From Candidatus Poribacteria bacterium (GTDB lineage: Bacteria > Poribacteria > WGA-4E > WGA-3G): a stretch of 64,000 bases of DNA. Positions 5,405-59,167 of this stretch are shown one piece after another. Under the pieces are notes generated by a model. The model was not told the origin of the DNA. It saw nothing but the letters and a program-made list of their open reading frames with translations, and made no database searches. The stretch covers positions 2,316,994-2,380,993 of the forward strand of contig OZ243935.1 in assembly GCA_965214045.1 (NCBI GenBank). The letters are read 5' to 3'. Position numbers and translations under genes: made by a program. Positions within the stretch are counted from its first letter, which is position 1, and each line of letters starts with the position of its first letter.

Positions 5405-5446
5405 CCCGCAAGGTAAAATTAAAAGTCCGCAAGGTAAAATTAAAAA
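5405..5446 (+). repeat. tandemly duplicated core motif (cccgcaaggtaaaattaaaag twice) abutting the recD2 start codon
   Basis: Two adjacent copies. The second is followed at once by ATG at 5447. Confidence 0.8.
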
Positions 5447-20910: not shown

Positions 20911-21008
20911 CGTAGTGGGAGGATTTTGCTTGGGTATTTCTTCAGGTCTACGCAAAGACACTTGGAAGCACAAACCTACTTCACCGAACCGCAAGGAAAA
21001 TTAGGAAA
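20911..21008 (+). repeat. long-form leader repeat ending in the core motif followed by ATG (short ORF only)
   Basis: gtagtgggaggattttgcttgggtattt...acgcaaagacac...caccgaaccgcaaggaaaattaggaaa followed by ATG at 21009. Only a 14-codon ORF follows. Confidence 0.7.
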
Positions 21009-21043
21009 ATGTCTGTTATTCTTCTCGAAGTCCAAAGCCGCAA

Positions 21044-21129
21044 GCCCGTAATGAAATGGAGGGCGACTCTACGGGAAGGCAGGTAAATGTATAAACCCAC
21101 TTCATCGAACCGCAAGGAAAATTAGAAAC
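21044..21129 (+). promoter_or_regulatory. extended leader repeat (GCCCGTAATGAAATGGAGGGCG...ATCGAACCGCAAGGAAAATTAGAAAC) abutting the pnkp start
   Basis: Homologous to the leaders at 30042-30131 and 34672-34757. ATG at 21130. Confidence 0.7.
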
Positions 21130-23697
21130 ATGAGAATTCCTGAACCTTCACTTATACTCCTCATTGGACCTTCGGGTTCAGGTAAATCTACCTTTGCACG
21201 TAAGCATTTTAAACCAACCGAGATTCTTTCGTCGGATTTCTGCCGAGGACTCGTTTCAGACGATGAGACCGATCAGACGGTAACGAATGATGCTTTTGAA
21301 GTGCTACGCTTCATCGCAGCCAAACGGCTCGCTGCCGGGAAATTGACGGTTATTGATGCCACGAATGTCCAGGTTGAAGCGCGAAAACCTTTGTTGGCAC
21401 TGGCGCGCGAATACCACTATTTAACCGTTGCTATTGTGTTTGATCTTCCCACAAAACTTTGTCAAGAAAGAAACGAGACGCGTCCCGACAGAAATTTGAA
21501 ACCTCATGTCATCCGTCAACAGAGCCAACAACTCCGTCGCTCGTTGCGCACTCTCAAACGCGAAGGTTTTCGGCAATTTGTCTATGTAATGTCCACACCC
21601 GAAGTTATTGAAGCCACCCATATAGAGCGGCAGCCATTGTGGACGAATCGCACAGACGAGCAAGGACCGTTTGATATTATTGGGGATATTCACGGCTGTT
21701 TTGATGAGCTTGTTGAATTGCTCGAAGAACTCGGTTACAAGGTCTCAATACAACCGGACGGCGACACCGTTGTTGAACCGCCACAAGGCAGGAAAGCGGT
21801 TTTCGTGGGCGATTTTGTTGACCGAGGTCCTAAAGTCCCTGAGGTGTTACGCTTGGTCATGGGAATGCAAAAAACCGACACGGCTCTCTGTGTCCCCGGG
21901 AATCATGACGTAAAACTGATTCGGGTACTTCGCGGCAAAAATGTGAATCCGACGCACGGATTAGCAGAATCCCTTTCTCAATTGGAGAGAGAATCAGTCG
22001 AATTTAAGGCACAAATCGTGGAATTCCTTGATGGTTTGGTGAGTCACTGTGTCCTTGACAACGGAAAGTTGGTCGTCGCGCATGCAGGAATGAAGGATGA
22101 ATTGCAAGGCAGGGCATCGGGGCGCGTGCGAGAATTCGCACTCTATGGCGAAACCACCGGAGAAACCGATGAGTTCGGCTTACCTATTCGACGCAATTGG
22201 GCTGACGAATATCGCGGGAACGCGATGGTTGTCTACGGACACACGCCGGTTGTCGAGCCGCAATGGGTAAATCGGACAATCAACATTGATACCGGATGTG
22301 TTTTCGGCGGTAAACTGACAGCGTTGCGATACCCTGAAAAAGAACTCGTGTCTGTTCCAGCACACCGGACGTATTATGAACCGGTTAAACCGCTTCTTGT
22401 AGGAGCGGACTCCGATTCCCGACAATCTTCTGTCGAAATGCAGGGGTCTGATGGCATTCTCGACATCAATGATGTACTTGGAAGGCGTGTCATCAGCACA
22501 CGATTACATCATAATGTGACAATCCGTGAAGAGAATACAATAACCGCACTTGAGGGAATGAGTCGTTTCGCTATAAACCCAAAATGGCTTATTTATCTTC
22601 CACCCACGATGTCACCAACAGAAACCACAAGCAATCCGGGGCTGCTTGAACATCCGGCGGAAGGGTTCGCTTATTACCGCAAACAAGACGTATCCACAGT
22701 CATTTGGGAAGAAAAACACATGGGATCCCGTGCTGTCGTTGTCGTTTGCCGAGATCCAGAAACCGCGAAAAGACGATTTGGTGTCCCAGGCGACACGCTT
22801 GGCATCTGTTACACACGGACCGGTAGACGTTTCTTTAACGATGCCACGATTGAAGCCGAACTGTTGGAACAAGTGAAAACCGCGATGGATACAGTCGGCT
22901 ATTGGGAGACCCTCAATACAGATTGGATCTGTTTTGACTGCGAGTTGATGCCTTGGTCAGTTAAGGCTCAGGAATTGTTACAGCAGCAATATGCACCCGT
23001 CGGAGCATCGGCTCATGTCGCGTTAGGAGAAACGATTGCCTCCCTGAAGATAGCCGCCGAGCGCGGCGTTGACGTGGATTGTATATTGGATGACTATCGT
23101 CAGCGCGCAGAGGCAGTGACCGCATACGTTAGGGCATATCAGCAATATTGTTGGGACGTCCAGTCTATTGCGGACTTGAGACTGGCTCCGTTCCATCTAC
23201 TTGCGACGGAAGGTACGGTGTATTTCGACAAAGACCATCTGTGGCACATGCGAATGCTTACGAAACTCTGTGAGAATTCTGAGGATAACCTGTTGTTCGC
23301 CACTCACTACGAGAGGGTTGATGTGACGCATGAGGCAAGCCAAACTGAAGCGATCTGTCGGTGGGAAGAACTCACCGAGCAGGGCAGCGAAGGGACAGTC
23401 ATCAAACCCCTGGATTTTATCGTTCAAGGCAAGCGAGGATTGGTACAACCCGCTATAAAGTGTCGAGGTCGTGAATACCTGCGGATAATCTATGGACCTG
23501 AATATACAGTGCCTCGAAACTTAGAACGTCTCCGTTCTCGCGGACTTTCTCACAAACGTTCTCTCGCACTTCGAGAGTTTGCGTTAGGCGTTGAGGCACT
23601 TGAACGCTTCGTTCACCGTGAACCCTTGCCCCGTGTTCATGAGTGCGTTTTCGGAATTCTGGCACTCGAAAGTGAGGCAGTTGATCCGAGACTTTAA
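21130..23697 (+). CDS. pnkp: polynucleotide kinase-phosphatase-ligase Pnkp (RNA repair)
   Basis: 855 aa in three modules. The P-loop kinase has GPSGSGKST. The calcineurin-like phosphoesterase has GDIHGC, GDFVDRGP and GNHD. The C-terminal nucleotidyltransferase has a KHMGS motif-I-like block. Confidence 0.8.
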   Translation: MRIPEPSLILLIGPSGSGKSTFARKHFKPTEILSSDFCRGLVSDDETDQTVTNDAFEVLRFIAAKRLAAGKLTVIDATNVQVEARKPLLALAREYHYLTVAIVFDLPTKLCQERNETRPDRNLKPHVIRQQSQQLRRSLRTLKREGFRQFVYVMSTPEVIEATHIERQPLWTNRTDEQGPFDIIGDIHGCFDELVELLEELGYKVSIQPDGDTVVEPPQGRKAVFVGDFVDRGPKVPEVLRLVMGMQKTDTALCVPGNHDVKLIRVLRGKNVNPTHGLAESLSQLERESVEFKAQIVEFLDGLVSHCVLDNGKLVVAHAGMKDELQGRASGRVREFALYGETTGETDEFGLPIRRNWADEYRGNAMVVYGHTPVVEPQWVNRTINIDTGCVFGGKLTALRYPEKELVSVPAHRTYYEPVKPLLVGADSDSRQSSVEMQGSDGILDINDVLGRRVISTRLHHNVTIREENTITALEGMSRFAINPKWLIYLPPTMSPTETTSNPGLLEHPAEGFAYYRKQDVSTVIWEEKHMGSRAVVVVCRDPETAKRRFGVPGDTLGICYTRTGRRFFNDATIEAELLEQVKTAMDTVGYWETLNTDWICFDCELMPWSVKAQELLQQQYAPVGASAHVALGETIASLKIAAERGVDVDCILDDYRQRAEAVTAYVRAYQQYCWDVQSIADLRLAPFHLLATEGTVYFDKDHLWHMRMLTKLCENSEDNLLFATHYERVDVTHEASQTEAICRWEELTEQGSEGTVIKPLDFIVQGKRGLVQPAIKCRGREYLRIIYGPEYTVPRNLERLRSRGLSHKRSLALREFALGVEALERFVHREPLPRVHECVFGILALESEAVDPRL

Positions 23698-29992: not shown

Positions 29993-30041
29993 AGGAAAAT
30001 TAGGCATGCAAGAACCTCTTAAAGGTCGGACAAAGCACGCA

Positions 30042-30131
30042 GCCCGTAATGAAATGGAGGGCGGATCTACGGAAAGGAACGTCAAATTTGAAACCGACCT
30101 GACCGAACCGCAAGATAAAATTAAAAAAGCA
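30042..30131 (+). promoter_or_regulatory. extended leader repeat with the core motif, upstream of the epimerase gene
   Basis: 88 of 94 nt identical to the 34672-34757 copy. Ends ...ccgcaagataaaattaaaaaagca, just before a TTG. Confidence 0.7.
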
Positions 30132-31112: not shown

Positions 31113-31252
31113 GCAGGAGGTTAGCCGTCAGCAGTCGGTTGTCAGCAGTCGGTGAAGAGCGAATTATGGCATCAGGAAATACGCAACTGCCACAAGAATC
31201 TACCGAAAGCCGAAAGCCGAAAGCCGAAAGCCAGTATAAAACATTTTGGGTG

Positions 31253-32542: not shown

Positions 32543-32616
32543 CTTTTTAATTGGGGAACTCCGATAAAATGGTTGTTGGTTATCGGCTAATAGGCAAAAA
32601 TTAGTTCCGAAATCGT

Positions 32617-32704
32617 AAGCCTGCAACAACGGCGCAGGCGACTTGAGAGAAGGCACTTCAAGCATGAAACCTACTCAATTACTCCGCAAGGTAAGTTTAA
32701 AAAA
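32617..32704 (+). repeat. start-codon cassette repeat (AAGCCTGCAACAACGGCGCAGGCGAC...AGAGAAGGCAC...ATGAAAC...CCGCAAGGTAAGTTTAAAAA)
   Basis: About 90-nt homology to 42250-42337. It includes the ATG at 32664 and the first 13 codons of the sulfotransferase. Confidence 0.75.
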
Positions 32705-33638
32705 TGTTGCGGACTATCGCTACCTCATCGTAGGCGGCACCACGAAGGCGGCGACAACGTCGCTGTTTGCCTACTTGGCGGATCATCCTGCTATTTGCGC
32801 TGCCACTTACAAGGAGACTCGGTTCTTTCTCAGCAGCGATTATCCGCTTCCTTCAAAATACCGGTATAAAGATGATGTTGAGGAATACAATCTTTTGTTT
32901 CCGGATGCTGATGGAACGCAGCTTCGGATGGAATCGACCCCCGACTATCTATATTGTGACGAAGCCCGTGAGAGAATTGCCACATCTCTGCCCGAGGCAA
33001 AGTTAGTCTTCAGTCTCCGTGAACCAATTTCCAGGTTAATCTCTTGGTATCGTTTCGCGAAACAAATTGGTAAGTTGCCCCAAACTTTGAGTTTTGACGC
33101 GTATGTTGAATTGCTTTTCGCTGCTACTAATCGCCATGAAGAGACAGAAGAACAGCACTTGCAAACACTTCAGCAGGGGTGTTATACTATCTATCTGAAG
33201 CACTATTTTAACCGATTCGGTCCAGAGCGTGTCCACATCCTTTTTTATGAGGAACTCGCGGCACAACCGGCGGATGCTATGGCAAAATTGTGTGACTTCG
33301 CTGGTATTGATGCCGGTTTTTATAGCGATTACGGGTTTAAAGTAACGAATCGCACCCAGCAGATGCGAAATTCTGAGTTGCATCAAAAATATAGGGACTT
33401 CCGGTTTCGATTACGACAGTGGACGCATAACAAACCGATCATTCATACCCCGTTGCGCTCAATAAGACGAACAATTGAGCCGCTCTATCTTCGATTGAAC
33501 ACACAGACGGGTGAGAAGGCGCAGATGTCAGAAGAAACACAGCACCGTTTGATCGATTATTACACATCGGATGTTCAGGCTCTCGACGAATTGATTGGGA
33601 AACCGATACCATGGAAAACTTGGGCAAAATCCAGTTGA
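32664..33638 (+). CDS. sulfotransferase-family protein (PAPS-dependent)
   Basis: 5'-PSB P-loop YLIVGGTTKAATTSL. 3'-PB region ...SLREPISRLISWY. Confidence 0.7.
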   Translation: MKPTQLLRKVSLKNVADYRYLIVGGTTKAATTSLFAYLADHPAICAATYKETRFFLSSDYPLPSKYRYKDDVEEYNLLFPDADGTQLRMESTPDYLYCDEARERIATSLPEAKLVFSLREPISRLISWYRFAKQIGKLPQTLSFDAYVELLFAATNRHEETEEQHLQTLQQGCYTIYLKHYFNRFGPERVHILFYEELAAQPADAMAKLCDFAGIDAGFYSDYGFKVTNRTQQMRNSELHQKYRDFRFRLRQWTHNKPIIHTPLRSIRRTIEPLYLRLNTQTGEKAQMSEETQHRLIDYYTSDVQALDELIGKPIPWKTWAKSS

Positions 33639-34534
33639 TGATTGTTGGCGCACAGAAGGCAGGGACCTCCTCACTCCTCCGCTACTTGGCGCAGCATCCC
33701 GATATCCACACGCACGCACAACCAGAGATGACCTTCTTTCTCCAAGCGCGTGAATATACGCGCGGATATGAATGGGCTTTTGGGAAATACTTTGATGGAG
33801 AGAATTCCGACGATGAGATTAAGGATAAACATCTGATCGCTAAGAATGTAATGGTGATGCATTCGCCGGACGTTATGCAACGGATTTATGAACACAATCC
33901 GCATATACACATCGTTGTCCTCCTACGGGAACCTGTGGCACGTGCCTATTCTGCCTATTGGTGGGCTCGGCGGAGAGGGTGGGAGAACATCAAAACTTAT
34001 GAAGAGGCACTGGCTGCCGAGGAAGCGCGCCTGAACGAAGGCTGGTTTAAATGGCGACAATGTGCTTATCAATACAATGGCATCTATTATCCACATGTCA
34101 AGCGTCTGATGACCCAATTTGGCTCCAATCACGTGCATTGTGTCTTAACCGATGATTTGAAGGATAACGCCGAAGCTGTCTGTCAGCAACTCTTTGATCG
34201 CATGGGTATCAGTGCGAATTTCAGTCCCACAATAGGTGAACGGCATAACAAAGCCGCGCTGCCGCGTTCCGAAAAATTCAACTTTTTCTTTACGCAATTT
34301 TTAGCATCCCACAATCCACTCAGAAAAGCGATTCGGAAATTGCTACCTGATGCCACTGCTTACAAGTTGAGAAAAGCCGTTTTGGAGTGGAACGACAAGC
34401 CTGCGGAAAATATGGATTCAGCACCGCCTCCGATTAATCCACAGACGCGTGAACGCCAGATGGCATATTTCAAACCGTTTAACGAACAATTAGTCGAATT
34501 ATTAGGCAGAGATCTTTCGTCTTGGGATTTTTAA
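33611..34534 (+). CDS. sulfotransferase-family protein (heparan-sulfate N/3-O-sulfotransferase-like fold)
   Basis: MIVGAQKAGTSSLLRYL (5'-PSB) and VLLREPVARAYSAY (3'-PB). The start overlaps the previous gene's stop. Confidence 0.7.
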   Translation: MENLGKIQLMIVGAQKAGTSSLLRYLAQHPDIHTHAQPEMTFFLQAREYTRGYEWAFGKYFDGENSDDEIKDKHLIAKNVMVMHSPDVMQRIYEHNPHIHIVVLLREPVARAYSAYWWARRRGWENIKTYEEALAAEEARLNEGWFKWRQCAYQYNGIYYPHVKRLMTQFGSNHVHCVLTDDLKDNAEAVCQQLFDRMGISANFSPTIGERHNKAALPRSEKFNFFFTQFLASHNPLRKAIRKLLPDATAYKLRKAVLEWNDKPAENMDSAPPPINPQTRERQMAYFKPFNEQLVELLGRDLSSWDF

Positions 34535-34610
34535 TTTTTTTTGATTTTACCTTGCGGAGTAACAACGTGCGTTTGGACTTTGACATGCGTTCCTTAAATC
34601 TGAAGAAATA
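34528..34610 (-). repeat. reverse-complement copy of the core motif plus a conserved 3' module immediately after a sulfotransferase stop
   Basis: ttttaattttttttgattttaccttgcgg is the reverse complement of ccgcaaggtaaaatcaaaa... It is followed by agtaacaacgtgcgtttggactttgacatgcgttcc. The same module occurs at 38906-38985. Confidence 0.7.
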
Positions 34611-34671
34611 CCCTATCAAAAACCCTGTGCCGTTGTTGCAGACTACTGTCTTGGGTAAACTAAAACCCATA

Positions 34672-34757
34672 GCCCGTAATGTAATGGAGGGCGGATTTAC
34701 GGAAAGGAACGTTAAACTTGAAACCGACCTGACCGAACCGCAAGGTAAACTTAAAAA
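34672..34757 (+). promoter_or_regulatory. extended leader repeat ending at the ATG of the next gene
   Basis: gcccgtaatgtaatggagggcggatttacggaaaggaacgttaaacttgaaaccgacctgaccgaaccgcaaggtaaacttaaaaa followed by ATG 34758. Confidence 0.75.
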
Positions 34758-36137
34758 ATGATTTACTTTTTAACAGGATACGTTGCTTTTGAAGAGTTTA
34801 TACTGAAGTTTTTACCTGTCAGCGACGCTATCTACTCCTATTTAAGATTCTTCGGCGAAATAATCATCTATATCGCTTTTGGAAGACTCGTTATCCATAA
34901 ACTCCACAGAGGCATTCCTTTTGTAAAGACGGCAATAGACTTGCCGATTATCGGTTTTTACAGCGTTGTCCTCCTCTCAATGCTCATAAATAGCTCGCCT
35001 TTGATAGGGAGTCTTTACAACATCCGACCGTTTGCCCGATATATTGTCCTCTTCTATCTCATCGCGAATTCTGCTTTGTCGGAGAGACGGATTACAACCC
35101 TTTTACGCATAATTCTTGTGGTGGGGGTCTTCCAACTTGTCGCGGGTATAGTTCAGTGGGTGGGCGGACCCGCCGCGTTCGATTTCTTCCTACCTCGCGA
35201 ATCAACACTCACCATCGGTGGGTTCACCAAAGAGTACAGATTGCTTGAACTCGGCAGAGAGATTGGCAGCGTCTACGGTACTTTAGGAGATACCGTAATT
35301 TACGGTGTCTTTATGATTCTTGTTCTTGTTATCTATCTTTCTCGTATTCGGCGACTCGAATATCTGAATCTGCTCGGTGCAGTGATACTGTTTTTCTTTA
35401 TCGCGCGTTCGTATTCACGCGCCGCAACCTTCTCCGCCCTTCTCGCGGGTGGCGCGTGGTTCCTCTTCCACCACGGTTGGAAAAAGACCCTTCGTTTGGC
35501 AGTAGCGACTGTCCTCATCTTTGGAATTCTACTGGTAATGGCAAACCCATTTAACCTTGAATATATAAACCCGCGCAAAGCAAGGGTTGGACTCGTCGGC
35601 AACGTAACAGGCGTATTTTCCGGGTCCTATGTCCGTGTCGCGCAGAAACAGCGGCTCGGAGCGTTGATCGGAAATGTCCCAACGGTGCTTGTTAACAAGC
35701 CGATCTTAGGGTATGGTGCCGACCAGAACAGCACGATTGAGAGACTTAATATGAGCAAACGCTCATTCCTGCTTAAAGTCCTCAGTAAGAACGGCTTCAA
35801 GGATGTGTATTGGGTAGCCATCCTATGTTTCTATGGCATATTGGGACTGGGTTTCTTCGCTTTGATATTTTACCAACTCTTTCGCGCTGCGCTGCGGCTT
35901 TACAAGAGGTCAACCAGTTCATCTTCTGCTATGGAGAGAGGTGCCCCTACCTCACGTGTAACACAACGGATCGCTATTATCATGCTCTGTCTCGTCGCTG
36001 TTACTGTATTTTTACTTTTCTTTAATCGAACGCTTGAATTTCGAGGGTATGGGTTCTACTTCTGGCTCTGTGCCGGTCTCATGTTTGCCAGTGATAGATC
36101 GCTCCCGACCTATAGACCCCTGAGGGTAACATTATGA
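34758..36137 (+). CDS. polytopic membrane protein, O-antigen ligase/polymerase (Wzy/WaaL)-like
   Basis: About 10-12 transmembrane segments with a larger periplasmic loop. Position and topology fit a Wzy-type polymerase or ligase. The call rests on topology and context. Confidence 0.5.
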   Translation: MIYFLTGYVAFEEFILKFLPVSDAIYSYLRFFGEIIIYIAFGRLVIHKLHRGIPFVKTAIDLPIIGFYSVVLLSMLINSSPLIGSLYNIRPFARYIVLFYLIANSALSERRITTLLRIILVVGVFQLVAGIVQWVGGPAAFDFFLPRESTLTIGGFTKEYRLLELGREIGSVYGTLGDTVIYGVFMILVLVIYLSRIRRLEYLNLLGAVILFFFIARSYSRAATFSALLAGGAWFLFHHGWKKTLRLAVATVLIFGILLVMANPFNLEYINPRKARVGLVGNVTGVFSGSYVRVAQKQRLGALIGNVPTVLVNKPILGYGADQNSTIERLNMSKRSFLLKVLSKNGFKDVYWVAILCFYGILGLGFFALIFYQLFRAALRLYKRSTSSSSAMERGAPTSRVTQRIAIIMLCLVAVTVFLLFFNRTLEFRGYGFYFWLCAGLMFASDRSLPTYRPLRVTL

Positions 36138-37813
36138 ATAGCATTCAGCCATCAGCCATCAGCCATCAGCCAAGAAGCGGTCAAGGGTCAGCTGTCAGCA
36201 AAGGAAATCGTGCGATAGGTGAAAACGATGGCAACCGCCACAATGATCGACTGACAGCCGACTGCCGACTGCTGATAGCTATTCTGATGACACTATTTTT
36301 CGCAGTTGGTTGTCAAACCCAAAAATCGCTGCCTAATACGCTGTATTTTGAAATTAATACACGTAACGGGCAACCGCTCCGTCAAGGACTCTACGGCTTC
36401 AACTCAAATATGATAAGCGGTGATTACGGTTACCTTGATGACGATTTTGTCGCCTTAACCAAGGTACTCGCGCCGAAGACCTTACGGTTTCCGGGCGGGA
36501 CGGTTGGAAACTTTTATCATTGGGAACCTGGTGGCTTTTTTGAGGATGAAATGGTATCGACGCTCAGTACGAAACTTAATAGACGGATGAAGGGAAATTA
36601 CGTCAAACTTCAAAGGCGGCGGAACGGTCAAATCCTTTTCGACGACTTTATGCAGTTATGCCACACACTGAATATCACGCCTATTGTTGTTGTAAACTTA
36701 TGGACAGGCACTCCAGAAGAGAGTGCGGCGTGGGTTCGCTATGCGAAAGACAAAGGCTACCAGATTACGCATTGGGAACTCGGTAACGAATACTATCTAC
36801 CGCATTATCTCAACAAATATCCAACCGTTGAAGTCTACATAGCGGAAGCCAAGAAACATGCGACAGCGATGAAAGCTGTGAATCCAGATATAAAGGTATC
36901 CGTCTGTGCGACTCCGATTGCTTTCCATAAGGAGGGATGGTTGGTAAAAAGTTACCAACGGAAATGGGATGAAGGTCTCGCAGCTGATAATAGTTTCTAC
37001 GACGCTTATACCGTCCATGTCTATGCCTATAAGGCTGTCCGAAAAAAAGAGATCGAAGAAATGCGGGGCTACTTGATGGGATGGATTCACTTTGGTGTCG
37101 CGGAGGCTATTGATTACTATGAAAAGTTATTTCCAAATAAAGAGATGTGGATAACGGAATGGAACATCACCAACCCCGCAAACCGAGTCGCAAATACACA
37201 ACTCCATGCGATGTATGTGGGTGATTTTTTCCTGAAAATGTTAGCGATTCCGAACGTCACACAGGCAAACTTTCACGTCATCACGGGTCCCGGGAAAGGA
37301 TTCCCTGTGTTTTCGCCTGTAACACCGCCAACACCGAATACCTTTTGGAAATATGGCGGTGAACCCGAGTCCGATTTCGGTGGCACTATTCGACGTGCTG
37401 TTTATCCTGCTTTTCAACTCATCGGTGAAGCATTCGCTGAGGCTGACACACAGTTCTCCCTTTCAATTCAAAATCAGCCCTTTCTGGCAGGAACCATGGA
37501 GTATAAGGATAAACAGATGCCCGGTATTCAGGCACATGCCATCGGTGGAAATGCCATGGAACATTTGACTGTACTCGTCAGTAATCGGACAAGTGAGCAA
37601 TACGAACCGCAACTCCTAATTGATGGTGAACGTTACAAGGGCAACATCGACTACCGTTATGTTGCTGATGAGAGGCTCAATGCAACCAACGGTGGAAACG
37701 CTGAAATGGAGGGGTCTGGTAAAATCGAAGTCCGTATCCAAGAGTGGCATGGGAAATCGACGGAACTTGTCATCCCTAAAAATAGTTTTGGAATTTTAAA
37801 ATTAAGAGAATAG
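36134..37813 (+). CDS. glycoside hydrolase, clan GH-A TIM barrel (GH39/GH79/GH30-like), probable lipoprotein
   Basis: Catalytic-pair pattern WELGNEY (acid/base) and ITEWN (nucleophile). Lipobox-like LFFAVGC. The N-terminal low-complexity region is encoded by (CAGCCAT)3 and GACTGCCGACTGCTG repeats, so the true start may be later. Confidence 0.6.
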   Translation: MNSIQPSAISHQPRSGQGSAVSKGNRAIGENDGNRHNDRLTADCRLLIAILMTLFFAVGCQTQKSLPNTLYFEINTRNGQPLRQGLYGFNSNMISGDYGYLDDDFVALTKVLAPKTLRFPGGTVGNFYHWEPGGFFEDEMVSTLSTKLNRRMKGNYVKLQRRRNGQILFDDFMQLCHTLNITPIVVVNLWTGTPEESAAWVRYAKDKGYQITHWELGNEYYLPHYLNKYPTVEVYIAEAKKHATAMKAVNPDIKVSVCATPIAFHKEGWLVKSYQRKWDEGLAADNSFYDAYTVHVYAYKAVRKKEIEEMRGYLMGWIHFGVAEAIDYYEKLFPNKEMWITEWNITNPANRVANTQLHAMYVGDFFLKMLAIPNVTQANFHVITGPGKGFPVFSPVTPPTPNTFWKYGGEPESDFGGTIRRAVYPAFQLIGEAFAEADTQFSLSIQNQPFLAGTMEYKDKQMPGIQAHAIGGNAMEHLTVLVSNRTSEQYEPQLLIDGERYKGNIDYRYVADERLNATNGGNAEMEGSGKIEVRIQEWHGKSTELVIPKNSFGILKLRE

Positions 37814-37844
37814 ATAGTTGTTCATAGAGAGGCATGTTATTCTT

Positions 37845-37903
37845 CAAACCGACCTGACCGAACCGCAAGGAATAATTAAAAGTCCGCAAGGAATAATTAA
37901 AAG
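37845..37903 (+). repeat. leader repeat with tandemly duplicated core (ccgcaaggaataattaaaag twice) abutting an ATG
   Basis: caaaccgacctgaccgaaccgcaaggaataattaaaagtccgcaaggaataattaaaag followed by ATG 37904. Compare the duplication at 5405-5446. Confidence 0.8.
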
Positions 37904-38944
37904 ATGGTATTTGTTGTAGGGAATAGTCGCAGTGGTACAACAATGATGGGGCGGATTTTAGGAAAACACCCGAGTATTTATACTTTCGGGGAACTTCACT
38001 TTTTTGGTCAGTTGTGTGCCCCGCCGTTTTCATCGGAATCGCGTAAGGAGGAGATAGAAGAACTCGCCTCACAGTTACATTGTATTCAGCAAGAAGGGTA
38101 TCGCACGCATGGAAACCCACGTCGTTTCTTAAGCAAGGCAGAGTCCTTTCTTGAGAGTCTAATCACTTATCCTGAAACGCAAGCCGCGCTTTTTGAAGCC
38201 TTTCTCCACCATGTTGCTGCTGAGAATGGTGGTGCTATCCCTTGCGATCAAACACCGCGTAATGTCTTTTATATTGCCGATATCCTTCAGCTTTACCCGA
38301 AAGCTCGGATTATCAATATGATCCGTGACCCACGCGATGTGTTATTATCTCAAAAAAGGAAGTGGAAACGCCGGTTTCTCGGCGGGAGTGATCTGCCGAA
38401 AAAGGAAACGTTCCGTGATTGGGTGAACTATCATCCAATAATCATTAGTTACATCTGGCGCACCGCCGTCGCCGCTGCTGAGCAGTTTTTACAACACGAA
38501 CGAGTTACCTCCATCTATTTTGAGGAACTCCTCGCGCACCCTAAGGCAACTGTCAAACATCTCTGTGATTTTGTCGGTATTACTTACACGGATGCAATGC
38601 TCCAAGTACCGCAAGTTGGATCTTCTGTCGCGGAGGACCAGCCTCAGCAACTTGGCATAAATCCGCACCGAGCACACAGTTGGAACAGGAACACAACTGG
38701 CGGAGAGCTCAGTTCCGCTGAGATTTACCTTAACCAGACGATAACTGCAGCTCTCATGAAAACACATAACTATATCCCTGTGTCGGTGCGTCCAAATCTC
38801 GCACATTTGACACTACACCTATTGACCTTTCCTGTAAAATTAGTCGGGGCATTCCTTTTTAACCTTGATCGGATGAAAAGCATCCGTCAAACGCTAAAGA
38901 GACGGATTTTTAATTTACCTTGCAGAGAAACAACGGACGTTTGA
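37904..38944 (+). CDS. sulfotransferase-family protein
   Basis: VVGNSRSGTTMMGRIL (5'-PSB) and MIRDPRDVLLS (3'-PB). The last about 12 codons are encoded by the reverse-orientation repeat module. Confidence 0.7.
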   Translation: MVFVVGNSRSGTTMMGRILGKHPSIYTFGELHFFGQLCAPPFSSESRKEEIEELASQLHCIQQEGYRTHGNPRRFLSKAESFLESLITYPETQAALFEAFLHHVAAENGGAIPCDQTPRNVFYIADILQLYPKARIINMIRDPRDVLLSQKRKWKRRFLGGSDLPKKETFRDWVNYHPIIISYIWRTAVAAAEQFLQHERVTSIYFEELLAHPKATVKHLCDFVGITYTDAMLQVPQVGSSVAEDQPQQLGINPHRAHSWNRNTTGGELSSAEIYLNQTITAALMKTHNYIPVSVRPNLAHLTLHLLTFPVKLVGAFLFNLDRMKSIRQTLKRRIFNLPCRETTDV

Positions 38945-38985
38945 ACTTTGAAGTGCGTTTCTTCAGATATACGTAAAGGTACTTT
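38906..38985 (-). repeat. reverse-complement core motif plus conserved 3' module (second copy)
   Basis: tttttaatttaccttgcagagaaacaacggacgtttgaactttgaagtgcgtttc, homologous to 34528-34610. Confidence 0.7.
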
Positions 38986-39002
38986 ATTTATTAAACCCAC
39001 CT

Positions 39003-39029
39003 CACCGAACCGCAAGGAATAATTAAAAT
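39003..39029 (+). repeat. core motif copy abutting an ATG
   Basis: caccgaaccgcaaggaataattaaaat followed by ATG 39030. Confidence 0.8.
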
Positions 39030-40031
39030 ATGATTGCACAGATAGATTCACGTTATATTAAAACCCGCCCAACGAAGGTCCTAACGCGCCTGATGAGTTA
39101 TGCCCTCTTTGAAGGTCGTCCTGTAACCACGAAAGGTCGCTGGATAAATCCGCTCGTTTTTTCACTTTTGAAGAGGTTCGCTGCGAAGAGTAACACATAT
39201 AAATCTGTTGAAAAACCGATCTTCATCTTGGGGACCGGTCGCAGTGGCACTACGATACTCGGTATTGTGCTATCTATGCACAGGGAGATTGGCTATCTCA
39301 ACGAACCAAAGGCTATATGGCATCTCATCCATCCGCATGAAGACATTATCGGTAACTACAGTCAAGCGGATGCAAAATATCGACTCACTGCCGAAGATGC
39401 AACAAACGAAATGTGTCAGTGCGCTTCGCAGCTATTCGGTGCCTATTTGGCAGCAACGCGCTCAAAACGTCTGGTTGATAAGTATCCGGAACTCATCTTC
39501 AGGGTAGATTTCGTTCGCGCACTGTTTCCTGATGCTCGTTTCATTTTCCTTACCCGCAATGGGTGGGATACGTGCCATTCAATTGCAACATGGTCGGAAC
39601 GGCTCGGTATCCAGATCAATAGCGAGAAACATGATTGGTGGGGTGTGAATGACCGGAAGTGGAGGCTCTTAGTTGAGCAACTCGTTAAAACGGACCCTGT
39701 TTTTTCGAAATCTACTGATGAAGTTAAACGTATGGATCGACATCTCGATAGAGCAGCTGTGGAATGGATAGTCACTATGCGTGAGGGGCTTCATTTAATG
39801 CGAACGTCACCTGACTATATTCATCTTATTCGTTTTGAGGATCTGACATCACAGCCGGATGAAACCCTCTCGGCTTTATGTGACTTCTGCGAACTTCCAA
39901 TGGACACAACATTCCGTGAGTATGCTCGACAGACCTTGCATCCAGTACCTGCTAAAGAATCTTTTGATATTCATACGAAGATCGCACCACTTTTCCATGA
40001 TACCATGAGAGAAATGGGATATAATACTTAG
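39030..40031 (+). CDS. sulfotransferase-family protein
   Basis: ILGTGRSGTTILG (5'-PSB) and FLTRNGWDT (3'-PB-like). Confidence 0.65.
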   Translation: MIAQIDSRYIKTRPTKVLTRLMSYALFEGRPVTTKGRWINPLVFSLLKRFAAKSNTYKSVEKPIFILGTGRSGTTILGIVLSMHREIGYLNEPKAIWHLIHPHEDIIGNYSQADAKYRLTAEDATNEMCQCASQLFGAYLAATRSKRLVDKYPELIFRVDFVRALFPDARFIFLTRNGWDTCHSIATWSERLGIQINSEKHDWWGVNDRKWRLLVEQLVKTDPVFSKSTDEVKRMDRHLDRAAVEWIVTMREGLHLMRTSPDYIHLIRFEDLTSQPDETLSALCDFCELPMDTTFREYARQTLHPVPAKESFDIHTKIAPLFHDTMREMGYNT

Positions 40032-40101
40032 ATGAATTTTGAATTACGTATGGCGAGATGTATGCTCTTGCCTATTATTAAAGATCGGACGCATTCATAC
40101 A

Positions 40102-42194
40102 ATGCCCAAAGACCCAGTTAGACAAACAGGAAGACATTCTCCAACAACACATTCTTTTACCCGGCGGGACTTCCTCTCAACCAGTTTGAAAGCTGGTGCT
40201 GCTGCCTTCACGACTGGACTCTTACCGAAATGGAATGCTGACGCTCAAGGGCAGTACAACGTGTTATTCATCGTTGTGGATGACTTGCGACCTTTACTTG
40301 GGTGCTACGGGCATCCAGAGGTACACACTCCTAATATTGATAAGCTCGCCGAACGAGGAACGGTTTTCAACCGAGCATATTGCCAGTATCCTCTCTGTAG
40401 TCCGTCCCGGACTTCGATGATAACAGGATTACGCCCGGAAACAACAGGTGTGCTGAATAATTCGCAAAATTTTCGGAAGAAATTGCCTGACGCGATTACA
40501 CTGCCTCAGCATTTCAAAACACATGGGTATCATACCCAATCCGTCGGTAGAATCGCACACCTTCCACAACTCCAGGATGATGAAAACTCATGGAGCGTTG
40601 CATCATGGAGACCGTTATGGTTGCCTTTTGATATAGAAACGACCCCATCTTGGCAAGCACTTGATGTTGACGATGACGATCTCAGAGATGGTAAAACTGC
40701 GAGACGAGCAGTTCGGACCCTGAACGGGATTAAAGACCGGCAATTTTTCCTTGCTGTCGGATTTTACAAACCGCATTTGCCCTTTAAGGCACCGCGAAAA
40801 TATTTTGAATTGTACGATACCCAAAACTTTGATTTGCCTGCTTCTTCTGTATCACCTAAAGATGCCCCTGATAGCGCACTTACCAATTGGAGTGCGATCC
40901 GAGCTTATCAAGATCTGCCTTTGGGAACAACACCTCTCTCTGATGCTAAGACCTTAGAATTGATTCGCGCGTATGCCGCCACAACGAGTTATACGGATGC
41001 ACAAATTGGTCGTGTATTAGCACAGTTAGATACCCTCGGTCTTACGGAGAATACTGTCATCGTTTTTTGTGGTGACCATGGGTATCATCTTGGTGAACAC
41101 GGAATATGGGGAAAACAAACCCTTTTTGAAGTCTCTCTCAGATCTCCTCTGATTGTTAGCATCCCATACCAACAAAGTTCGGAGACTGAGGCTTTGACTG
41201 AACTTGTTGACATCTATCCGACATTATGTGATGCGTGTCACTTGCCTATTCCAACAGAACTTGAAGGCAGTAGTATGATGCCGGTTATTGAGCAACCGAC
41301 TCGTCCTTGGAAAACTGCCGCTTTTAGCCAATTCGGGGGGAGTTCGCACGGTGGCATATCTATCCGGACGGAACGGTATAGATATACTGAATGGGACGAA
41401 ACGGGAGTCGTGGTGTTGAACTCTATGATTATGAAGCGGATCCAGATGAGACCGTTAATATCGCGACGCAACCAGAAAATGCGGAACTCGTCGTACACCT
41501 CAGCGAACGGCTTCACGCCGGATGGCAAGCGGCTTTGCCGGATATGCGCCAGCAGGTTCCCGTTCCGCAAACATTACCGTGGGATATAAATAATGATGGC
41601 GTTGTTGATATCCGTGATCTTGTTCTAATTTCAAGTAGTTTTGGTGAGGAAACACCAGCACACCCGAAAGCTGATGTAAATAAGGATGGTAAAGTTAACA
41701 TTCTTGACTTGCTTCTGGTGGCTGCGCATTTCGGTGAATCCAGCACGCCTGCTTCGCCATCGACTCGTGCCAATATTAGCGCAGAGCATTTTGACTTGGT
41801 GGAGCAATGGCTGACTGAAGCACATCTCGCAAATGATGGTTCACTTCCTTTTCAGGAAGGTATTGCTGCTTTAGAGCGTCTAATGGATACAGGGGTACCT
41901 ATGGAAACAGTTCTCTTACCGAACTATCCGAATCCGTTTAATCCTGAGACGTGGATACCTTACGATTTGGCTGAAGATTCGGATGTCGAGATCCACATCT
42001 ATAATCTGAAAGGTGAAACTGTGCGGCAGTTATCGCTTGGTTTTCAAAGTGCTGGCACCTATCGGACTCGGTCTCGTGCGGCATATTGGGATGGTCGGAA
42101 TGCTATCGGTGAACCTGTGGCAAATGGTGTCTACTTTTATACGCTTCAGACGGGACAAATGACAGCGACACGCCAAATGGTGATATTGAAATAG
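40102..42194 (+). pseudogene. Tat-exported formylglycine-type sulfatase fused to dockerin-like repeats and a T9SS C-terminal domain; reading frame broken near 41405-41420
   Basis: Twin-arginine signal TRRDFLSTSLKAGAAAF. Sulfatase signature CQYPLCSPSRTSMITG. The sulfatase C-terminal box (RYRYTEW...VELYDYEADPDET) is split between ORF 40039-41589 and ORF 41391-42194, which are -1 apart. The downstream part carries DINNDGVVDIRDL / DVNKDGKVNILDL and NYPNPFNPETWIPYDL...IHIYNLKGE...GVYFYTL. Confidence 0.6.
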
Positions 42195-42201
42195 GTAAAT
42201 C

Positions 42202-42337
42202 ATGAGAGATGAAATCTGCATTATTCACCCGCAAGATAAAATTAAAAACAAGCCTGCAACAACGGCGCAGGCGACAACAGAGAAAGGCACGTGAGAGATG
42301 AAATCTGCGTTATTCGCCCGCAAGGTAAAATTAAAAA
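42202..42337 (+). repeat. start-codon cassette: a partial copy (42202-42248) and a full copy (42250-42337), the latter including the ATG at 42298 and the first codons of the following gene
   Basis: atgagagatgaaatctgcRttattcRcccgcaagRtaaaattaaaaa occurs twice, separated by aagcctgcaacaacggcgcaggcgacaacagagaaaggcac. Homologous to 32617-32704. Confidence 0.75.
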
Positions 42338-43965
42338 TCTGTGTTTCAGTGTTCGTTTTAATTGCCGCAACAGTACAGGCTGCCTCGCTCATCAATGTTC
42401 CGCTCAATCCGGACTTGTCTGACTTTAATCGTGAAACCTACCGCTTTATTCATCGTTTACTTAACAAGCGGGTTTTACCCGGTATCCGGCGCGGTTCGTT
42501 GCCACTCACCCGTAAACAGGTTGTATCTTATCTGTTAGAGGTGGATCAGAAACAGAAAAACGGCGAAATCGCGTTGAGCGCTATTGACCAAGAGCGGCTA
42601 AACACACTATTAACCTTTTACCGCGAAGCTCGTGCGCCTATAACACAAAGCCCTGCCAGAAACCGACGATTGCATCTGCTGACAATGACCGGGAAAAAGA
42701 TGGACAAGGACTATCGGTTCTCTTTCGATGTGAGAGCTTCACAGCGTGTTATCGCGCATCTTATTGATAACTTGTCGGAGGAACAACCCAGTGAAGGAAA
42801 CATGCATGTTACCACCTTCTATCCACATCTCTATGGACAGGTGGGGGAAACGTTTGCCTTTACGACCGATATAGCACATAGGTTCGTCTACGGTGAATTT
42901 TTTGATGATTTCTTTCCTGATGAGACGAAAATTAGGCAATTGGAGGGTGGACTCAAAAACCGAACTGCTATTAACGCCTATCTGAAATTTGACTTGCCGT
43001 GGTTTGAACTGCAGCTTGGACAGGATACACTTCAGTGGGGACCTGGCTATCATGACAGCCTTTTGGTTTCCAAGAACCCGCTCGCTATGGACATGGTTAA
43101 ACTCCAAGCTACCTATAAACCTGTTACCTTCACAGCGTTCACCGGTATACTGGAGGATATGTCAGCGGAGATCAATCATAAGTATATTTCGGGACATAGG
43201 GTTGAGGGGTATTTCTGGGATAGGTTCGGTTTTGGTCTCTCTGAAGTCGTCGTTTACGGCGACCGTTTTGAGCCTGGGTATCTGAACCCAGTCAATATCT
43301 ACCTGATTAACGAGCAGCCGATTTCACGGGCAGATGGGCGCGTCCCCGGCAGTGGTGACAACGTCCTGATGAGTGTTGATATGCGGCTTCGTCTTGTAGA
43401 TGATTTTGAAATTTATGGCGAATTGATGGTGGACGATGGGAACCCCGCAGCGAATTTTAAACATTGGGATACGAAGTTTGGGGTCCTCGGTGGTATATAT
43501 CTAACAGACCCTTTTGGCATTGCAGATACTGACTTTCACGCTGAATACGCCTTTATAAACCAATACGCGTATACGCATGTAAATCCTGTGAATGTCTACA
43601 AACATTTTACCACGCCTATTGGACATCAGATCGGTTCTGATGCTGACAATCTATGGATAGAACTGCGTCGCCGATGGACAGATAGGCTTGAAACGACTTT
43701 CGGTTACGAATTAGAACGCCATGGGTCGGGTGGTATTGACAAACAACATCCGGTTGGTGCTCCAAAAGACGATGTTTGGACCCCGTTATCAGGTGTCACA
43801 GAAAGTGAGCACCGTCTCTCAGTCGGGGCTAACTGGGTTATTATCGGACATTATTCGCTCTATGCGGAGTGGGCACGCGTATGGAGAAGGAACTTGGGAA
43901 ATCGTAGAGATGTCCGCGAAAACGCGAATGAAATTGAAGCCAAATTCCTCTACCGGTTTCCCTAA
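42298..43965 (+). CDS. secreted outer-membrane beta-barrel-type protein, capsule-assembly Wzi-like
   Basis: Signal peptide with AQA|AS cleavage. Length and position in a glycan locus fit the Wzi family. Assignment tentative. Confidence 0.45.
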   Translation: MKSALFARKVKLKICVSVFVLIAATVQAASLINVPLNPDLSDFNRETYRFIHRLLNKRVLPGIRRGSLPLTRKQVVSYLLEVDQKQKNGEIALSAIDQERLNTLLTFYREARAPITQSPARNRRLHLLTMTGKKMDKDYRFSFDVRASQRVIAHLIDNLSEEQPSEGNMHVTTFYPHLYGQVGETFAFTTDIAHRFVYGEFFDDFFPDETKIRQLEGGLKNRTAINAYLKFDLPWFELQLGQDTLQWGPGYHDSLLVSKNPLAMDMVKLQATYKPVTFTAFTGILEDMSAEINHKYISGHRVEGYFWDRFGFGLSEVVVYGDRFEPGYLNPVNIYLINEQPISRADGRVPGSGDNVLMSVDMRLRLVDDFEIYGELMVDDGNPAANFKHWDTKFGVLGGIYLTDPFGIADTDFHAEYAFINQYAYTHVNPVNVYKHFTTPIGHQIGSDADNLWIELRRRWTDRLETTFGYELERHGSGGIDKQHPVGAPKDDVWTPLSGVTESEHRLSVGANWVIIGHYSLYAEWARVWRRNLGNRRDVRENANEIEAKFLYRFP

Positions 43966-44154: not shown

Positions 44155-44272
44155 AAAACCAAGCGTTTTTGCTTGGGTGTTTACGAAATGAAATTATGCC
44201 TTAAGGCGACTCGAGAAAAAAGAACGTCAATATCCAAACCCTGATACTTAACCGCAGGGAAAATTAAAAAAT
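44155..44272 (+). repeat. long-form leader repeat ending in a core-motif variant (accgcagggaaaattaaaaa) not followed by ATG
   Basis: Contains the ccaagcgtttttgcttgg hairpin. Confidence 0.65.
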
Positions 44273-44288
44273 TGGTCGTAAAAACAAA

Positions 44289-51059: not shown

Positions 51060-51217
51060 AGATGCCCCTCCGTTTATATTGGCAGTTGGCAGTCGGCAAT
51101 CAGCCGTCGGCGGACCCACTTTCGGTTTTCTGGAACTCTCAAATCAAATAGGGAACTGCTGGTCGTTAGGAAACCCTCTTTGCTGAAAGCCGAAAGCCGA
51201 AAGCCGAAAGCCATAGA

Positions 51218-59111: not shown

Positions 59112-59134
59112 TTATACCTTGCGGTTCAGTCAGG
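59105..59134 (-). repeat. reverse-complement core motif at the 3' end of the ABC ATPase gene
   Basis: tttttaattataccttgcggttcagtcagg is the reverse complement of cctgactgaaccgcaaggtataattaaaaa. It overlaps the stop codon of the 58353-59111 gene. Confidence 0.7.
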
Positions 59135-59167
59135 TCAATAGGCAGTCACCAGCCAATTGTTAAAAAG

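What the first reader, a model, noticed from the sequence alone, without database searches (positions are those of the whole stretch)
32617..42337. A repeat module that carries the start codon and first about 13 codons of two unrelated genes
32617-32704 (sulfotransferase) and 42250-42337 (Wzi-like outer-membrane protein) share about 90 nt. The shared stretch is AAGCCTGCAACAACGGCGCAGGCGAC, then a Shine-Dalgarno-like AGAGAAGG, then ATGAAAYCTRC...TTAYTCRCCCGCAAGGTAARTTTAAAAA. The two proteins therefore begin MKPTQLLRKVSLKN and MKSALFARKVKLKI. A partial extra copy at 42202-42248 lies just upstream of the second gene. Here the core motif is coding and supplies the positively charged n-region of a signal peptide. 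The nucleotide conservation is as high as in the non-coding copies, which points to selection at the DNA or RNA level or to recent spread of a cassette. A promoter-plus-start module that is reused between genes is unusual.
Basis: seen in the sequence. Interest (0 to 1): 0.65.

Follow-up and report, generated by a model that had tools for sequence, protein, structure and literature searches.

The report
Leader repeat co-opted as gene start
The ~90 nt shared by the two genes is a copy of a structured leader element that sits just upstream of hundreds of Poribacteria genes; here the original start codon was lost and translation most likely begins at an ATG inside the element.

Summary
Window 32615-32706 and 42248-42341 are two full-length copies, 79% identical, of a ~93-nt element. 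A half copy lies at 42203-42248. The pair is not private: the window holds 17-19 copies.

A profile of the element hit all 83 Poribacteria loci sampled and 1 of 36 loci from other taxa. No Rfam family matches it.

The usual layout is hairpin P1, long-range helix P2, CC-GCAA-GG, a 12-nt A-rich spacer, then the gene's ATG. P1 and P2 show compensatory changes.

Orthologues show that both genes once began differently: MKNVADY for the sulfotransferase and MIVLRNLL for Wzi. In the sulfotransferase the junction lacks one AAAAATG heptamer, so the element's normal ATG is out of frame. The only in-frame start upstream of the catalytic domain is the ATG 20 nt before the core. In Wzi, 1.5 element copies replaced the old 5' end; ATC at 42337 is a possible rival start.

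The two copies are barely closer to each other than to copies in other genomes, so I see no evidence of recent copying between them. Similar leader-to-coding fusions occur in at least six other unrelated genes. What the element does is inferred, probably an RNA-level translation or processing leader.

The parts
32615..32706 (+). Full-length leader-element copy in front of and inside the sulfotransferase gene
   Evidence: Covariance model R1, built without this copy: 57.8 bits, model positions 1-93. nhmmer E=1e-13.
32619..32639 (+). P1 hairpin, variant GCCTGC-AACAACGGC-GCAGGC
   Evidence: Sequence. Family-wide covariation of P1. The same 21-mer occurs in other genomes.
32664..32666 (+). ATG inside the element, 20 nt upstream of the core; the likely sulfotransferase start
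   Evidence: It is the only in-frame ATG/GTG/TTG/CTG/ATN between the in-frame TTG at 32643 (ORF boundary) and ATC at Ile22 (32727), next to the Sulfotransfer_3 match that begins at residue 23. It is kept in L001 and L128 and in proteins P0003, P0005-7, P0010, P0011, P0014 and P0018.
32684..32691 (+). Core CCGCAAGG (P3, a CC-GCAA-GG mini-hairpin), read here as codons for R-K
   Evidence: the core is invariant across the family.
32704..32706 (+). ATG at the family's normal start position (core end + 12 nt), here out of frame (+1) with the gene
   Evidence: In the orthologue L128 this ATG has mutated away while the ATG at -20 is kept.
32664..33638 (+). Sulfotransferase CDS (324 aa)
   Evidence: Pfam Sulfotransfer_3 and Sulfotransfer_1. 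Orthologues P0001-P0120.
42203..42248 (+). Partial upstream copy (3' half of the element), part of a tandem duplication with an 89-nt period
   Evidence: D5; 11.8 bits. The same arrangement is present in L006.
42248..42341 (+). Full-length leader-element copy in front of and inside the Wzi-like gene
   Evidence: R1: 55.5 bits, model positions 1-93. P2 is kept through compensatory changes, 6 of 7 pairs.
42298..42300 (+). ATG inside the element, 20 nt upstream of the core; the likely Wzi start
   Evidence: It gives an n-region with five K/R, a 13-residue hydrophobic core and VQA|AS. It is conserved in L006.
42337..42339 (+). In-frame ATC one base before the family's normal start position; a rival Wzi start
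   Evidence: Sequence. L062 has an analogous TTAAAAATC junction.
42298..43965 (+). Wzi-like outer-membrane protein CDS (555 aa)
   Evidence: Pfam Caps_assemb_Wzi. Orthologues P0121-P0240.
30038..30129 (+). Third copy in the window that runs into a CDS (epimerase). There is no ATG at the normal position, and ATT at 30120 is in frame.
   Evidence: R1: 86.1 bits. Translation from ATT gives (M)KKALVTGGAG, with the Epimerase profile starting at residue 4.
34668..34760 (+). Best canonical copy in the window, ending at the ATG of the gene at 34758
   Evidence: R1: 101.7 bits. Used here as the reference for the normal layout.

Best explanation
The shared module is a copy of a Poribacteria-specific leader element of about 93 nt, which I believe is undescribed.

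Normal layout: hairpin P1; then box 1 (ACGGAGAGG) paired over about 20 variable nt with CCUNACCG to form helix P2; then AA; then CC-GCAA-GG (P3); then a 12-nt A-rich spacer; then the gene's AUG.

Shown: family membership of both copies, the structure, the spacing, and the restriction to Poribacteria.

Shown by comparison with orthologues: in both flagged genes the ancestral start codon was lost.
- Sulfotransferase: the junction TTTAAAAAATGTTGCGG equals the ancestral TTTAAAAAATGAAAAATGTTG minus one AAAAATG heptamer. This fits either slippage or out-of-register joining at a 7-nt microhomology. The element's own ATG is therefore out of frame.
- Wzi: 1.5 element copies replaced the 5' end, and the element's TTAAAAA is joined in frame to about codon 10 of the old signal peptide.

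Inferred: translation now starts at an ATG that sits 20 nt upstream of the core in both copies. That position is one C-to-G change away from the common family variant ATC. It lies 10 nt downstream of the purine-rich box 1. From there CGC-AAG-GUA-AAA-UUA-AAA reads R-K-V-K-L-K.

Inferred: the element normally acts in the sense-strand RNA as a translation-initiation and/or processing leader.
For: Family and specificity:
- 17 covariance-model hits with E<1e-4 and 19 nhmmer hits in the window.
- 83 of 83 Poribacteria loci hit, against 1 of 36 loci from other taxa.
- No Rfam match in the window or in 143 kb of other Poribacteria DNA.

Structure:
- P1 has 49 cells changed on both sides, against 15.4 +/- 4.9 in shuffles (0 of 500 shuffles reach it). 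Pair 7-22 is UA in 22 sequences and CG in 20.
- P2 pair 35-69 is GC 22, AU 9, GU 3.
- G-U pairs number 23 against 5 A-C mismatches, so the sense strand is the one that folds.
- Core variants GCAA, GUAA and GCGA all fit a GNRA tetraloop.

Spacing:
- The core is followed by exactly 12 nt and then ATG.
- Independent gene calls start 20 nt after the first base of the core.

History:
- About half of the 120 sulfotransferase orthologues listed start MKNV(A/G)DY, the most common single form. L007 has a canonical element followed by ATGAAAAATGTT. L127, L131 and L132 have ATGAAAAATGTT without an element.
- The window, L001 and L129 share the shortened junction. L128 has lost the out-of-frame ATG but keeps the ATG at -20.
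- The Sulfotransfer_3 match starts at residue 23.
- About 70 of the 120 Wzi orthologues listed start M(I/M)(I/V)LRNLL-like; L007 and L130 have no element.

Generality: leader-to-coding fusions also occur in FG-GAP, TPR, DAO, SNase-like, amidase and epimerase genes.
Against: There is no expression, proteomic or transcription-start data, so the start codons are inferred.

For Wzi, the in-frame ATC at 42337 lies one base from the family's normal start position and could be the start.

The Wzi fusion is seen only in the window and in the 98%-identical L006, so its conservation carries little weight.

The order of events (ATG gain versus loss of the old start) cannot be resolved.

The spacer also looks like a -10 hexamer, with A at position 2 and T at position 6, sitting 6 nt before the ATG. 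The frequencies are biased by the scan pattern I used, so a DNA-level role is not excluded.

The inner part of P2 is paired in only 60-65% of sequences.
Confidence: 0.7

Rival explanations
1. The real starts lie at or near the element's normal start position, and the N-terminal extensions are not translated. For Wzi this would be ATC at 42337, giving M-CVSVFVLIAATVQA. For the sulfotransferase it would need a non-standard codon.
For: The ATC lies one base before the canonical position. L062 has the same TTAAAAATC junction. Four other genes appear to use ATT inside the spacer where the ancestral ATG stood, which would show that non-ATG starts are tolerated next to this element.
Against: The sulfotransferase has no table-11 start codon in frame between the ATG at 32664 and ATC at Ile22 (32727); the codons between are AAA CCT ACT CAA TTA CTC CGC AAG GTA AGT TTA AAA AAT GTT GCG GAC TAT CGC TAC CTC. 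An ATC start would leave Wzi with a signal peptide that has no charged n-region, whereas the ancestral peptide has an Arg.
Confidence: 0.2
2. One gene's module was recently copied onto the other by cassette spread or gene conversion. That would explain the shared ATG and the 26-nt identity.
For: Within the window each copy is the other's best match, apart from orthologues. They share the same ATG register and the GAC that follows P1.
Against: They are only 79% identical, against 76-77% for copies in other genomes. Without P1 the figure is 71%, below the 95th percentile of random pairs (75%). The hairpin 21-mer is conserved exactly in other genomes. Genomes that carry the fused sulfotransferase leader have a different, 581-aa Wzi: P0006 with P0124 and P0007 with P0123 share contig lengths. 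The two fusions therefore have different ages.
Confidence: 0.1
3. The element is mainly a DNA-level promoter for leaderless or short-leader transcripts: a -10-like NANNNT hexamer 6 nt before the ATG, with G at -14. The upstream boxes would be sites for a factor or an alternative sigma.
For: A at position 2 and T at position 6 of the hexamer are nearly constant. Some copies carry a perfect TATAAT. The spacing to the ATG is rigid. Copies often begin 5-46 nt after the upstream stop codon, which leaves little room for another promoter.
Against: No sigma-70 -35/-10 match falls in any copy: 12 sites were found in the region against 22 expected by chance, none of them in the elements. There is no -35-like hexamer. 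Compensatory changes and the G-U over A-C asymmetry in P1 and P2 point to a folded sense strand. The four A residues after the hexamer are 90-98% conserved, which is unusual for a discriminator region. The frequencies are also biased by my own scan pattern.
Confidence: 0.2
4. The element is a selfish, non-autonomous mobile repeat, similar to a MITE, REP or IS200/IS605-derived element. Its contact with start codons would be incidental.
For: Presence at orthologous genes is patchy: L007 has it, while L127, L131 and L132 lack it, and Wzi gained it only in the window lineage. There are tandem copies and 21-nt or 89-nt duplications. Strand-specific hairpins also fit single-stranded DNA transposition. 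A TnpB gene lies in L003.
Against: Copies are on the strand of the downstream gene, and 119 unique copies have exactly 12 nt between the core and an ATG (a set chosen for that spacing), far more regular than random insertion would give. No target duplications or terminal inverted repeats were seen. Orthologous copies persist and keep their structure while their sequence diverges.
Confidence: 0.15

Closest known systems
Rickettsia palindromic elements (RPE), from my own knowledge (Ogata et al. 2000); not checked with the tools here
   Same: A short, structured repeat family whose copies end up in frame inside unrelated protein-coding genes and add peptide segments.
   Different: RPEs insert inside genes and have no fixed relation to start codons. 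This element normally lies just upstream of the ATG and becomes coding only when the start codon is lost.
Mycobacterial interspersed repetitive units (MIRU), from my own knowledge (Supply et al. 1997)
   Same: Repeats of 40-100 bp between genes of the same orientation, whose ends overlap the stop and start codons of the flanking genes.
   Different: MIRUs are tandem minisatellites thought to couple translation through small ORFs. This element is usually a single copy with covariation-supported hairpins and a fixed 12-nt spacer.
Correia elements, REP/BIME and ERIC repeats, and 'putative mobile promoters' (Matus-Garcia et al. 2012), from my own knowledge
   Same: Abundant intergenic repeats that are co-transcribed and can alter expression, and homologous upstream regions found in front of unrelated genes.
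   Different: Those have terminal inverted repeats or lie at 3' ends, and have no fixed register with the start codon. No sigma-70 promoter was found here.
Lineage-specific cis-regulatory leader RNA motifs in Rfam
   Same: A conserved, structured 5' leader upstream of coding regions, supported by covariation.
   Different: No Rfam 15 family matches. Typical leader motifs serve one pathway, whereas this element precedes genes of many unrelated functions, at roughly 0.1 copy per kb in the sampled loci and 0.3 per kb in the window.

Membership tests
Poribacterial leader element (family defined here) | P1 hairpin of 4-6 bp with an inner 2-bp helix, at the 5' end | tested here: met
   Both copies carry GCCTGC...GCAGGC. 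Family covariation is shown.
Poribacterial leader element (family defined here) | Long-range helix P2 between box 1 and the segment just before the core | tested here: met
   The Wzi copy forms 6 of 7 pairs, with compensatory changes. The sulfotransferase copy forms only 4 of 7 and has an alternative TTGAG/CTCAA pairing, so the feature is weaker there.
Poribacterial leader element (family defined here) | Core CCGCAAGG, a 12-nt A-rich spacer, then the gene's ATG in frame | tested here: not met
   The core and spacer are present in both copies. In the sulfotransferase the ATG at +12 is out of frame. In Wzi that position is TCT. These are derived, fused members.
Poribacterial leader element (family defined here) | Full-length match to a covariance model built from other copies | tested here: met
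   57.8 and 55.5 bits over model positions 1-93.
Sigma-70-type promoter | TTGACA-like and TATAAT-like hexamers separated by 16-18 nt | tested here: not met
   No site falls in any copy between 29900 and 45000. There is no -35-like consensus.
Any Rfam 15 family | Score at or above the family's gathering threshold | tested here: not met
   Zero hits at gathering thresholds in the window and in 18 Poribacteria loci. At E<=1 there were only two unrelated weak hits elsewhere in the window.
In-frame repeat insertion of the RPE type | A repeat copy lies inside an ORF, in frame, in unrelated genes | tested here: met
   Seen in sulfotransferase, Wzi, FG-GAP, TPR, amidase, epimerase, DAO and SNase-like genes.
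In-frame repeat insertion of the RPE type | The repeat-derived segment is actually translated | not testable with these tools
   This needs proteomics or ribosome profiling.
IS200/IS605-derived or REP-type mobile repeat | Defined ends, a target-site signature and a cognate transposase (TnpA or RAYT) | not tested
   Only a TnpB gene near one locus was noticed. Insertion sites were not analysed.
Sec-type signal peptide (Wzi N-terminus starting from the ATG at 42298) | A positively charged n-region, a hydrophobic h-region and an AXA-like cleavage motif | tested here: met
   By inspection: MKSALFARKVKLK, then ICVSVFVLIAATV, then QA|AS. No predictor was run.

The most novel reading that the evidence does not exclude
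Poribacteria may use a phylum-specific structured RNA leader (P1, P2, a GNRA mini-hairpin and an A-rich spacer) as a general translation-initiation or processing platform in front of hundreds of genes. Its A-rich 3' end, next to the common gene opening ATG-AAA, would be a hotspot for slippage that repeatedly removes start codons. Cells would then recover by starting inside the leader, either at the ATG 20 nt before the core or at ATT in the spacer. The leader would thus be a recurrent source of new N-termini, including ready-made signal-peptide n-regions.
Probability: 0.3. Interest if true: 0.8.

Novelty: new variant of a known kind. Interest (0 to 1): 0.62.

Why it matters
The finding shows a concrete route by which a non-coding leader becomes the N-terminus of a protein. 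It also shows that gene callers in this phylum will often place starts wrongly around this element.

The underlying element is abundant, appears restricted to Poribacteria, has covariation-supported structure, and is absent from Rfam and from the literature I could search. If it is a general initiation or processing leader, it would be an unusual way to organise gene expression in an uncultured phylum, one that includes many sponge symbionts. It could also serve as a practical marker for true start codons in these genomes.

Tried and rejected
- Chance similarity: rejected.
- Rfam families, including any Poribacteria motif: no match at gathering thresholds, and no relevant match at E<=1.
- tRNA or tmRNA: none found.
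- Sigma-70 promoter or intrinsic terminator inside the element: no consistent match.
- Sigma-54 (GG-N10-GC) and ECF-type motifs, checked by eye: the second half-site is not conserved.
- A conserved upstream ORF starting 20 nt before the core: rejected. Only 9 of 170 copies have ATG there, and most of those frames close within 4-15 codons.
- Recent copying between the two genes: not supported.
- A search of JGI metagenome contigs for the variant that contains the internal ATG found nothing.
- RNAalifold on mixed alignments recovered only P1 and P3. P2 emerged only when I tested it explicitly. An alternative helix P0, pairing CGUA with UACG, was weaker at 72% paired and conflicts with P2.
- Literature searches for a described Poribacteria leader or repeat found nothing relevant.
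- My first ORF-through-element script was flawed, because stop codons inside the spacer ended the scan; I replaced it.


Full report
**1. Observation**

The two stretches are as described.
- The 26-mer AAGCCTGCAACAACGGCGCAGGCGAC occurs only at 32617 and 42250, with none expected by chance.
- In a gapped alignment the two 88-nt stretches are 79% identical.
- A 46-nt partial copy at 42203-42248 is 93% identical to 42292-42337.
- Both ORFs read through the repeat.

**2. The pair belongs to a large family**

Repeat finding and motif searches showed that the 3' half (…AAACCNACCTNACCGAA-CCGCAAGG-AAAATTAAAAA) recurs about 20 times in the window. It is almost always on the + strand and ends right at the ATG of a downstream ORF.

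The organism is a member of Candidatus Poribacteria, according to the names attached to homologues.

I scanned one genome per species for AACCGCAAGG-NANNNT-N6-ATG.
- An nhmmer profile of the element hit all 83 of those loci. It hit 1 of the 36 others, and that one is an unclassified MAG.
- After discounting the copy that brought each locus in, the density is about 0.1 per kb. In the window it is 0.30 per kb. By extrapolation this suggests several hundred copies per 5-6 Mb genome.
- Rfam 15 has no matching family in the window or in 143 kb of other Poribacteria DNA.
- Four literature searches found no description of the element.

**3. Anatomy**

The canonical copy has five parts.
- *P1*, a 21-nt hairpin. 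Variants include GCCC…GGGC, GCCUGC…GCAGGC, GCUU…AAGC and GCAUGC…GCAUGC.
- *Box 1*, ACGGAGAGG. It pairs across about 20 variable nt with CCUNACCG to form helix *P2*.
- *P3*, the core CC-GCAA-GG.
- A *12-nt A-rich spacer*.
- The gene's *ATG*.

The evidence for this structure is as follows.
- P1 covaries strongly. 49 cells are changed on both sides, against 15.4 +/- 4.9 in shuffles, and 0 of 500 shuffles reach the observed value. Pair 7-22 is UA in 22 sequences and CG in 20, with none unpaired. All slid controls fall to 29-52% paired.
- The outer pairs of P2 switch together between two subfamilies, ACGG…CCG and (A/G)AG…UUU. Pair 35-69 is GC 22, AU 9, GU 3.
- G-U pairs outnumber A-C mismatches 23 to 5, so the sense strand is the one that folds.
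- Core variants GCAA, GUAA and GCGA all fit a GNRA tetraloop.
- In 119 unique copies chosen for having ATG 12 nt after the core, the four A residues before the ATG are 90-98% conserved. Gene calls from the source databases start exactly 20 nt after the first base of the core.
- No sigma-70-type promoter match falls in any copy.

A covariance model built without the two flagged copies finds 17 copies in the window at E<1e-4. It scores the flagged copies over their full length at 57.8 and 55.5 bits.

**4. Why these two copies are coding**

*Sulfotransferase.*
- About half of the 120 orthologues listed begin MKNV(A/G)DY…IVGGTTKAATTSL, the most common single form.
- L007 has a canonical element followed by ATG-AAA-AAT-GTT. 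L127, L131 and L132 have the same ATGAAAAATGTT without an element.
- The window, L001 and L129 read …TTTAAAAAATGTTGCGG. That is the ancestral junction minus one AAAAATG heptamer. It fits either slippage between direct repeats or out-of-register joining at a 7-nt microhomology.
- As a result, the ATG at the family's normal position (32704) is in the +1 frame. The codon that replaced the ancestral Met is TTA.
- Apart from an in-frame TTG at 32643, seven codons further upstream at the ORF boundary, no other table-11 start codon lies in frame between the ATG at 32664 and ATC at Ile22 (32727), next to the Sulfotransfer_3 match that begins at residue 23.
- L128 is a diverged relative. It has lost the out-of-frame ATG but keeps the ATG 20 nt before the core and an open frame.
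- Sister lineages L003 and L129 solved the same loss differently, with an internal deletion and a new ATG that gives M(P/S)RFN(L/R)LK….

*Wzi.*
- About 70 of the 120 orthologues listed begin with an M(I/M)(I/V)LRNLL-like signal peptide.
- L007 and L130 have no element in front of the gene.
- Relatives that are 94-97% identical, such as L005, have lost the Met and carry a long, K/R/H-rich extension that contains a degenerate 5' half of an element.
- Only the window and L006 have 1.5 tandem copies whose TTAAAAA is joined in frame to …ICVSV.
- Starting from the ATG at 42298, the peptide MKSALFARKVKLK-ICVSVFVLIAATV-QA|AS is a conventional signal peptide.
- ATC at 42337, one base before the normal start position, remains a possible rival start.

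**5. Are the two copies specially related?**

No.
- At 79% they are barely closer to each other than to copies in other genomes (76-77%). Without P1 the figure is 71%, which is within the range for random pairs.
- The hairpin 21-mer occurs exactly at eight other independent positions (ten locus records) in other genomes.
- Genomes that share the fused sulfotransferase leader carry the other, 581-aa Wzi form. The two fusions therefore have different ages.
- The shared ATG register has a structural explanation. ATC and TTC are the common triplets at that position, so a single C-to-G change makes an ATG. The site lies 10 nt after the purine-rich box 1. Only spacers of the UAAAAUUAAAAA type stay open in that reading frame.

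**6. The phenomenon is general**

In about 1 Mb of sampled Poribacteria DNA, other copies also run into coding regions.
- L064+4288: an FG-GAP/ASPIC protein that begins MKPVLFTRKVKLKI. Its ATG is the normal ATG of a duplicated core.
- L062: an amidase that begins with TTG…RKEKLKILLIF.
- Four genes have ATT of the spacer exactly where the ancestral ATG should be. These are the epimerase at window 30120 and the genes in L063 (DAO), L035 (SNase-like) and L064 (TPR). Pfam domains begin at residues 4-6 in the epimerase and DAO genes.

This pattern fits an 8-nt slippage between ATTAAAAA and ATGAAAAA.

**7. Function**

The sense-strand structure, the SD-like AAGG, the A-rich spacer and the fixed register all favour an RNA-level leader for translation initiation and/or processing. 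This is an inference. A DNA-level, -10-like reading and a selfish mobile-repeat reading remain open, and they are not mutually exclusive.

**8. Verdict**

The feature is a derived state of a leader family that appears to be undescribed, not a private cassette shared by two genes.

Noticed in passing
window 30108-30129 (ATT at 30120-30122); also L063:2014, L035:1336, L064:2503: Four unrelated genes have no ATG after the element. Instead, the ATT of the spacer lies in frame exactly where the ancestral Met should be, giving (M)KKALVTGGAG, (M)KNIYDAIVIGAG, (M)KRTFLL and (M)KKFVTGLF. This suggests an 8-nt slippage between ATTAAAAA and ATGAAAAA, followed by use of ATT as the start codon.
   Followed up: partly
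window 5406-5446 and 37863-37903; also L006:3030-3070, L040, L062, L123: The 21-nt 3' module (CCGCAAGG plus spacer) is tandemly duplicated. Only the second unit is followed by an ATG.
   Followed up: no
window 34535-34617 (-), 38903-38995 (-), 59103-59196 (-): Minus-strand copies sit at or inside the 3' ends of + strand genes and point antisense into them. The one at 38903-38995 overlaps the last codons of the gene that ends at 38944 and is conserved in L003, L006 and L007. In these copies a hairpin follows where the ATG would be (ATCCGTC…GACGGAT).
   Followed up: no
window 3894-4001, 20911-21011, 38949-39032, 44194-44274: A subset of copies carries an insertion of about 26 nt after P1, GGGGTTTTTGCTTGGGYGTTTCYTCAG. 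It can pair GGAGG with CCTCC and resembles a hairpin followed by a T-run. It may be a nested second element.
   Followed up: no
window 20911-21132: Two elements lie in tandem. The ATG of the first (21008) opens only a 25-codon ORF that runs into the second element, so the first looks like an orphan leader.
   Followed up: no
element core plus spacer, for example window 5427-5449: CCGCAAGGTAAAATTAAAAAATG resembles the 16S rRNA helix 27 region, which I recall as GGCCGCAAGGTTAAAACTCAAATGAATTGACGG in E. coli. This is from memory and I did not check it against a Poribacteria 16S sequence. The 3' strand of P2 (CACCUCA) also resembles the anti-Shine-Dalgarno tail.
   Followed up: no
L064:2471-2520: An ATG 20 nt before the core opens a 15-codon frame (MESAVFIRKVKLKSS*), while the long TPR ORF continues in another frame. 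A 1-nt difference in the A-run would join the two, so this could be an assembly error or a slippage polymorphism.
   Followed up: no
window 3652-3739: An exact 44-nt tandem duplication (TTGTGAAGGAAGTGTCGAGGACACACGGTCTTAATAGTGCCAAA, two copies) lies just upstream of an element copy.
   Followed up: no
window 31205-31233 and 51185-51213: An identical 29-nt stretch, made of the heptamer GAAAGCC repeated about four times, occurs at two places 20 kb apart.
   Followed up: no
L005:11887-12740; L003:17509-18660: Syntenic loci differ by mobile-element genes. L005 has an IS630-type transposase just after Wzi, and L003 has a TnpB (OrfB_IS605) gene. The sulfatase genes upstream of Wzi are present in the window clade but absent from L007.
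   Followed up: no
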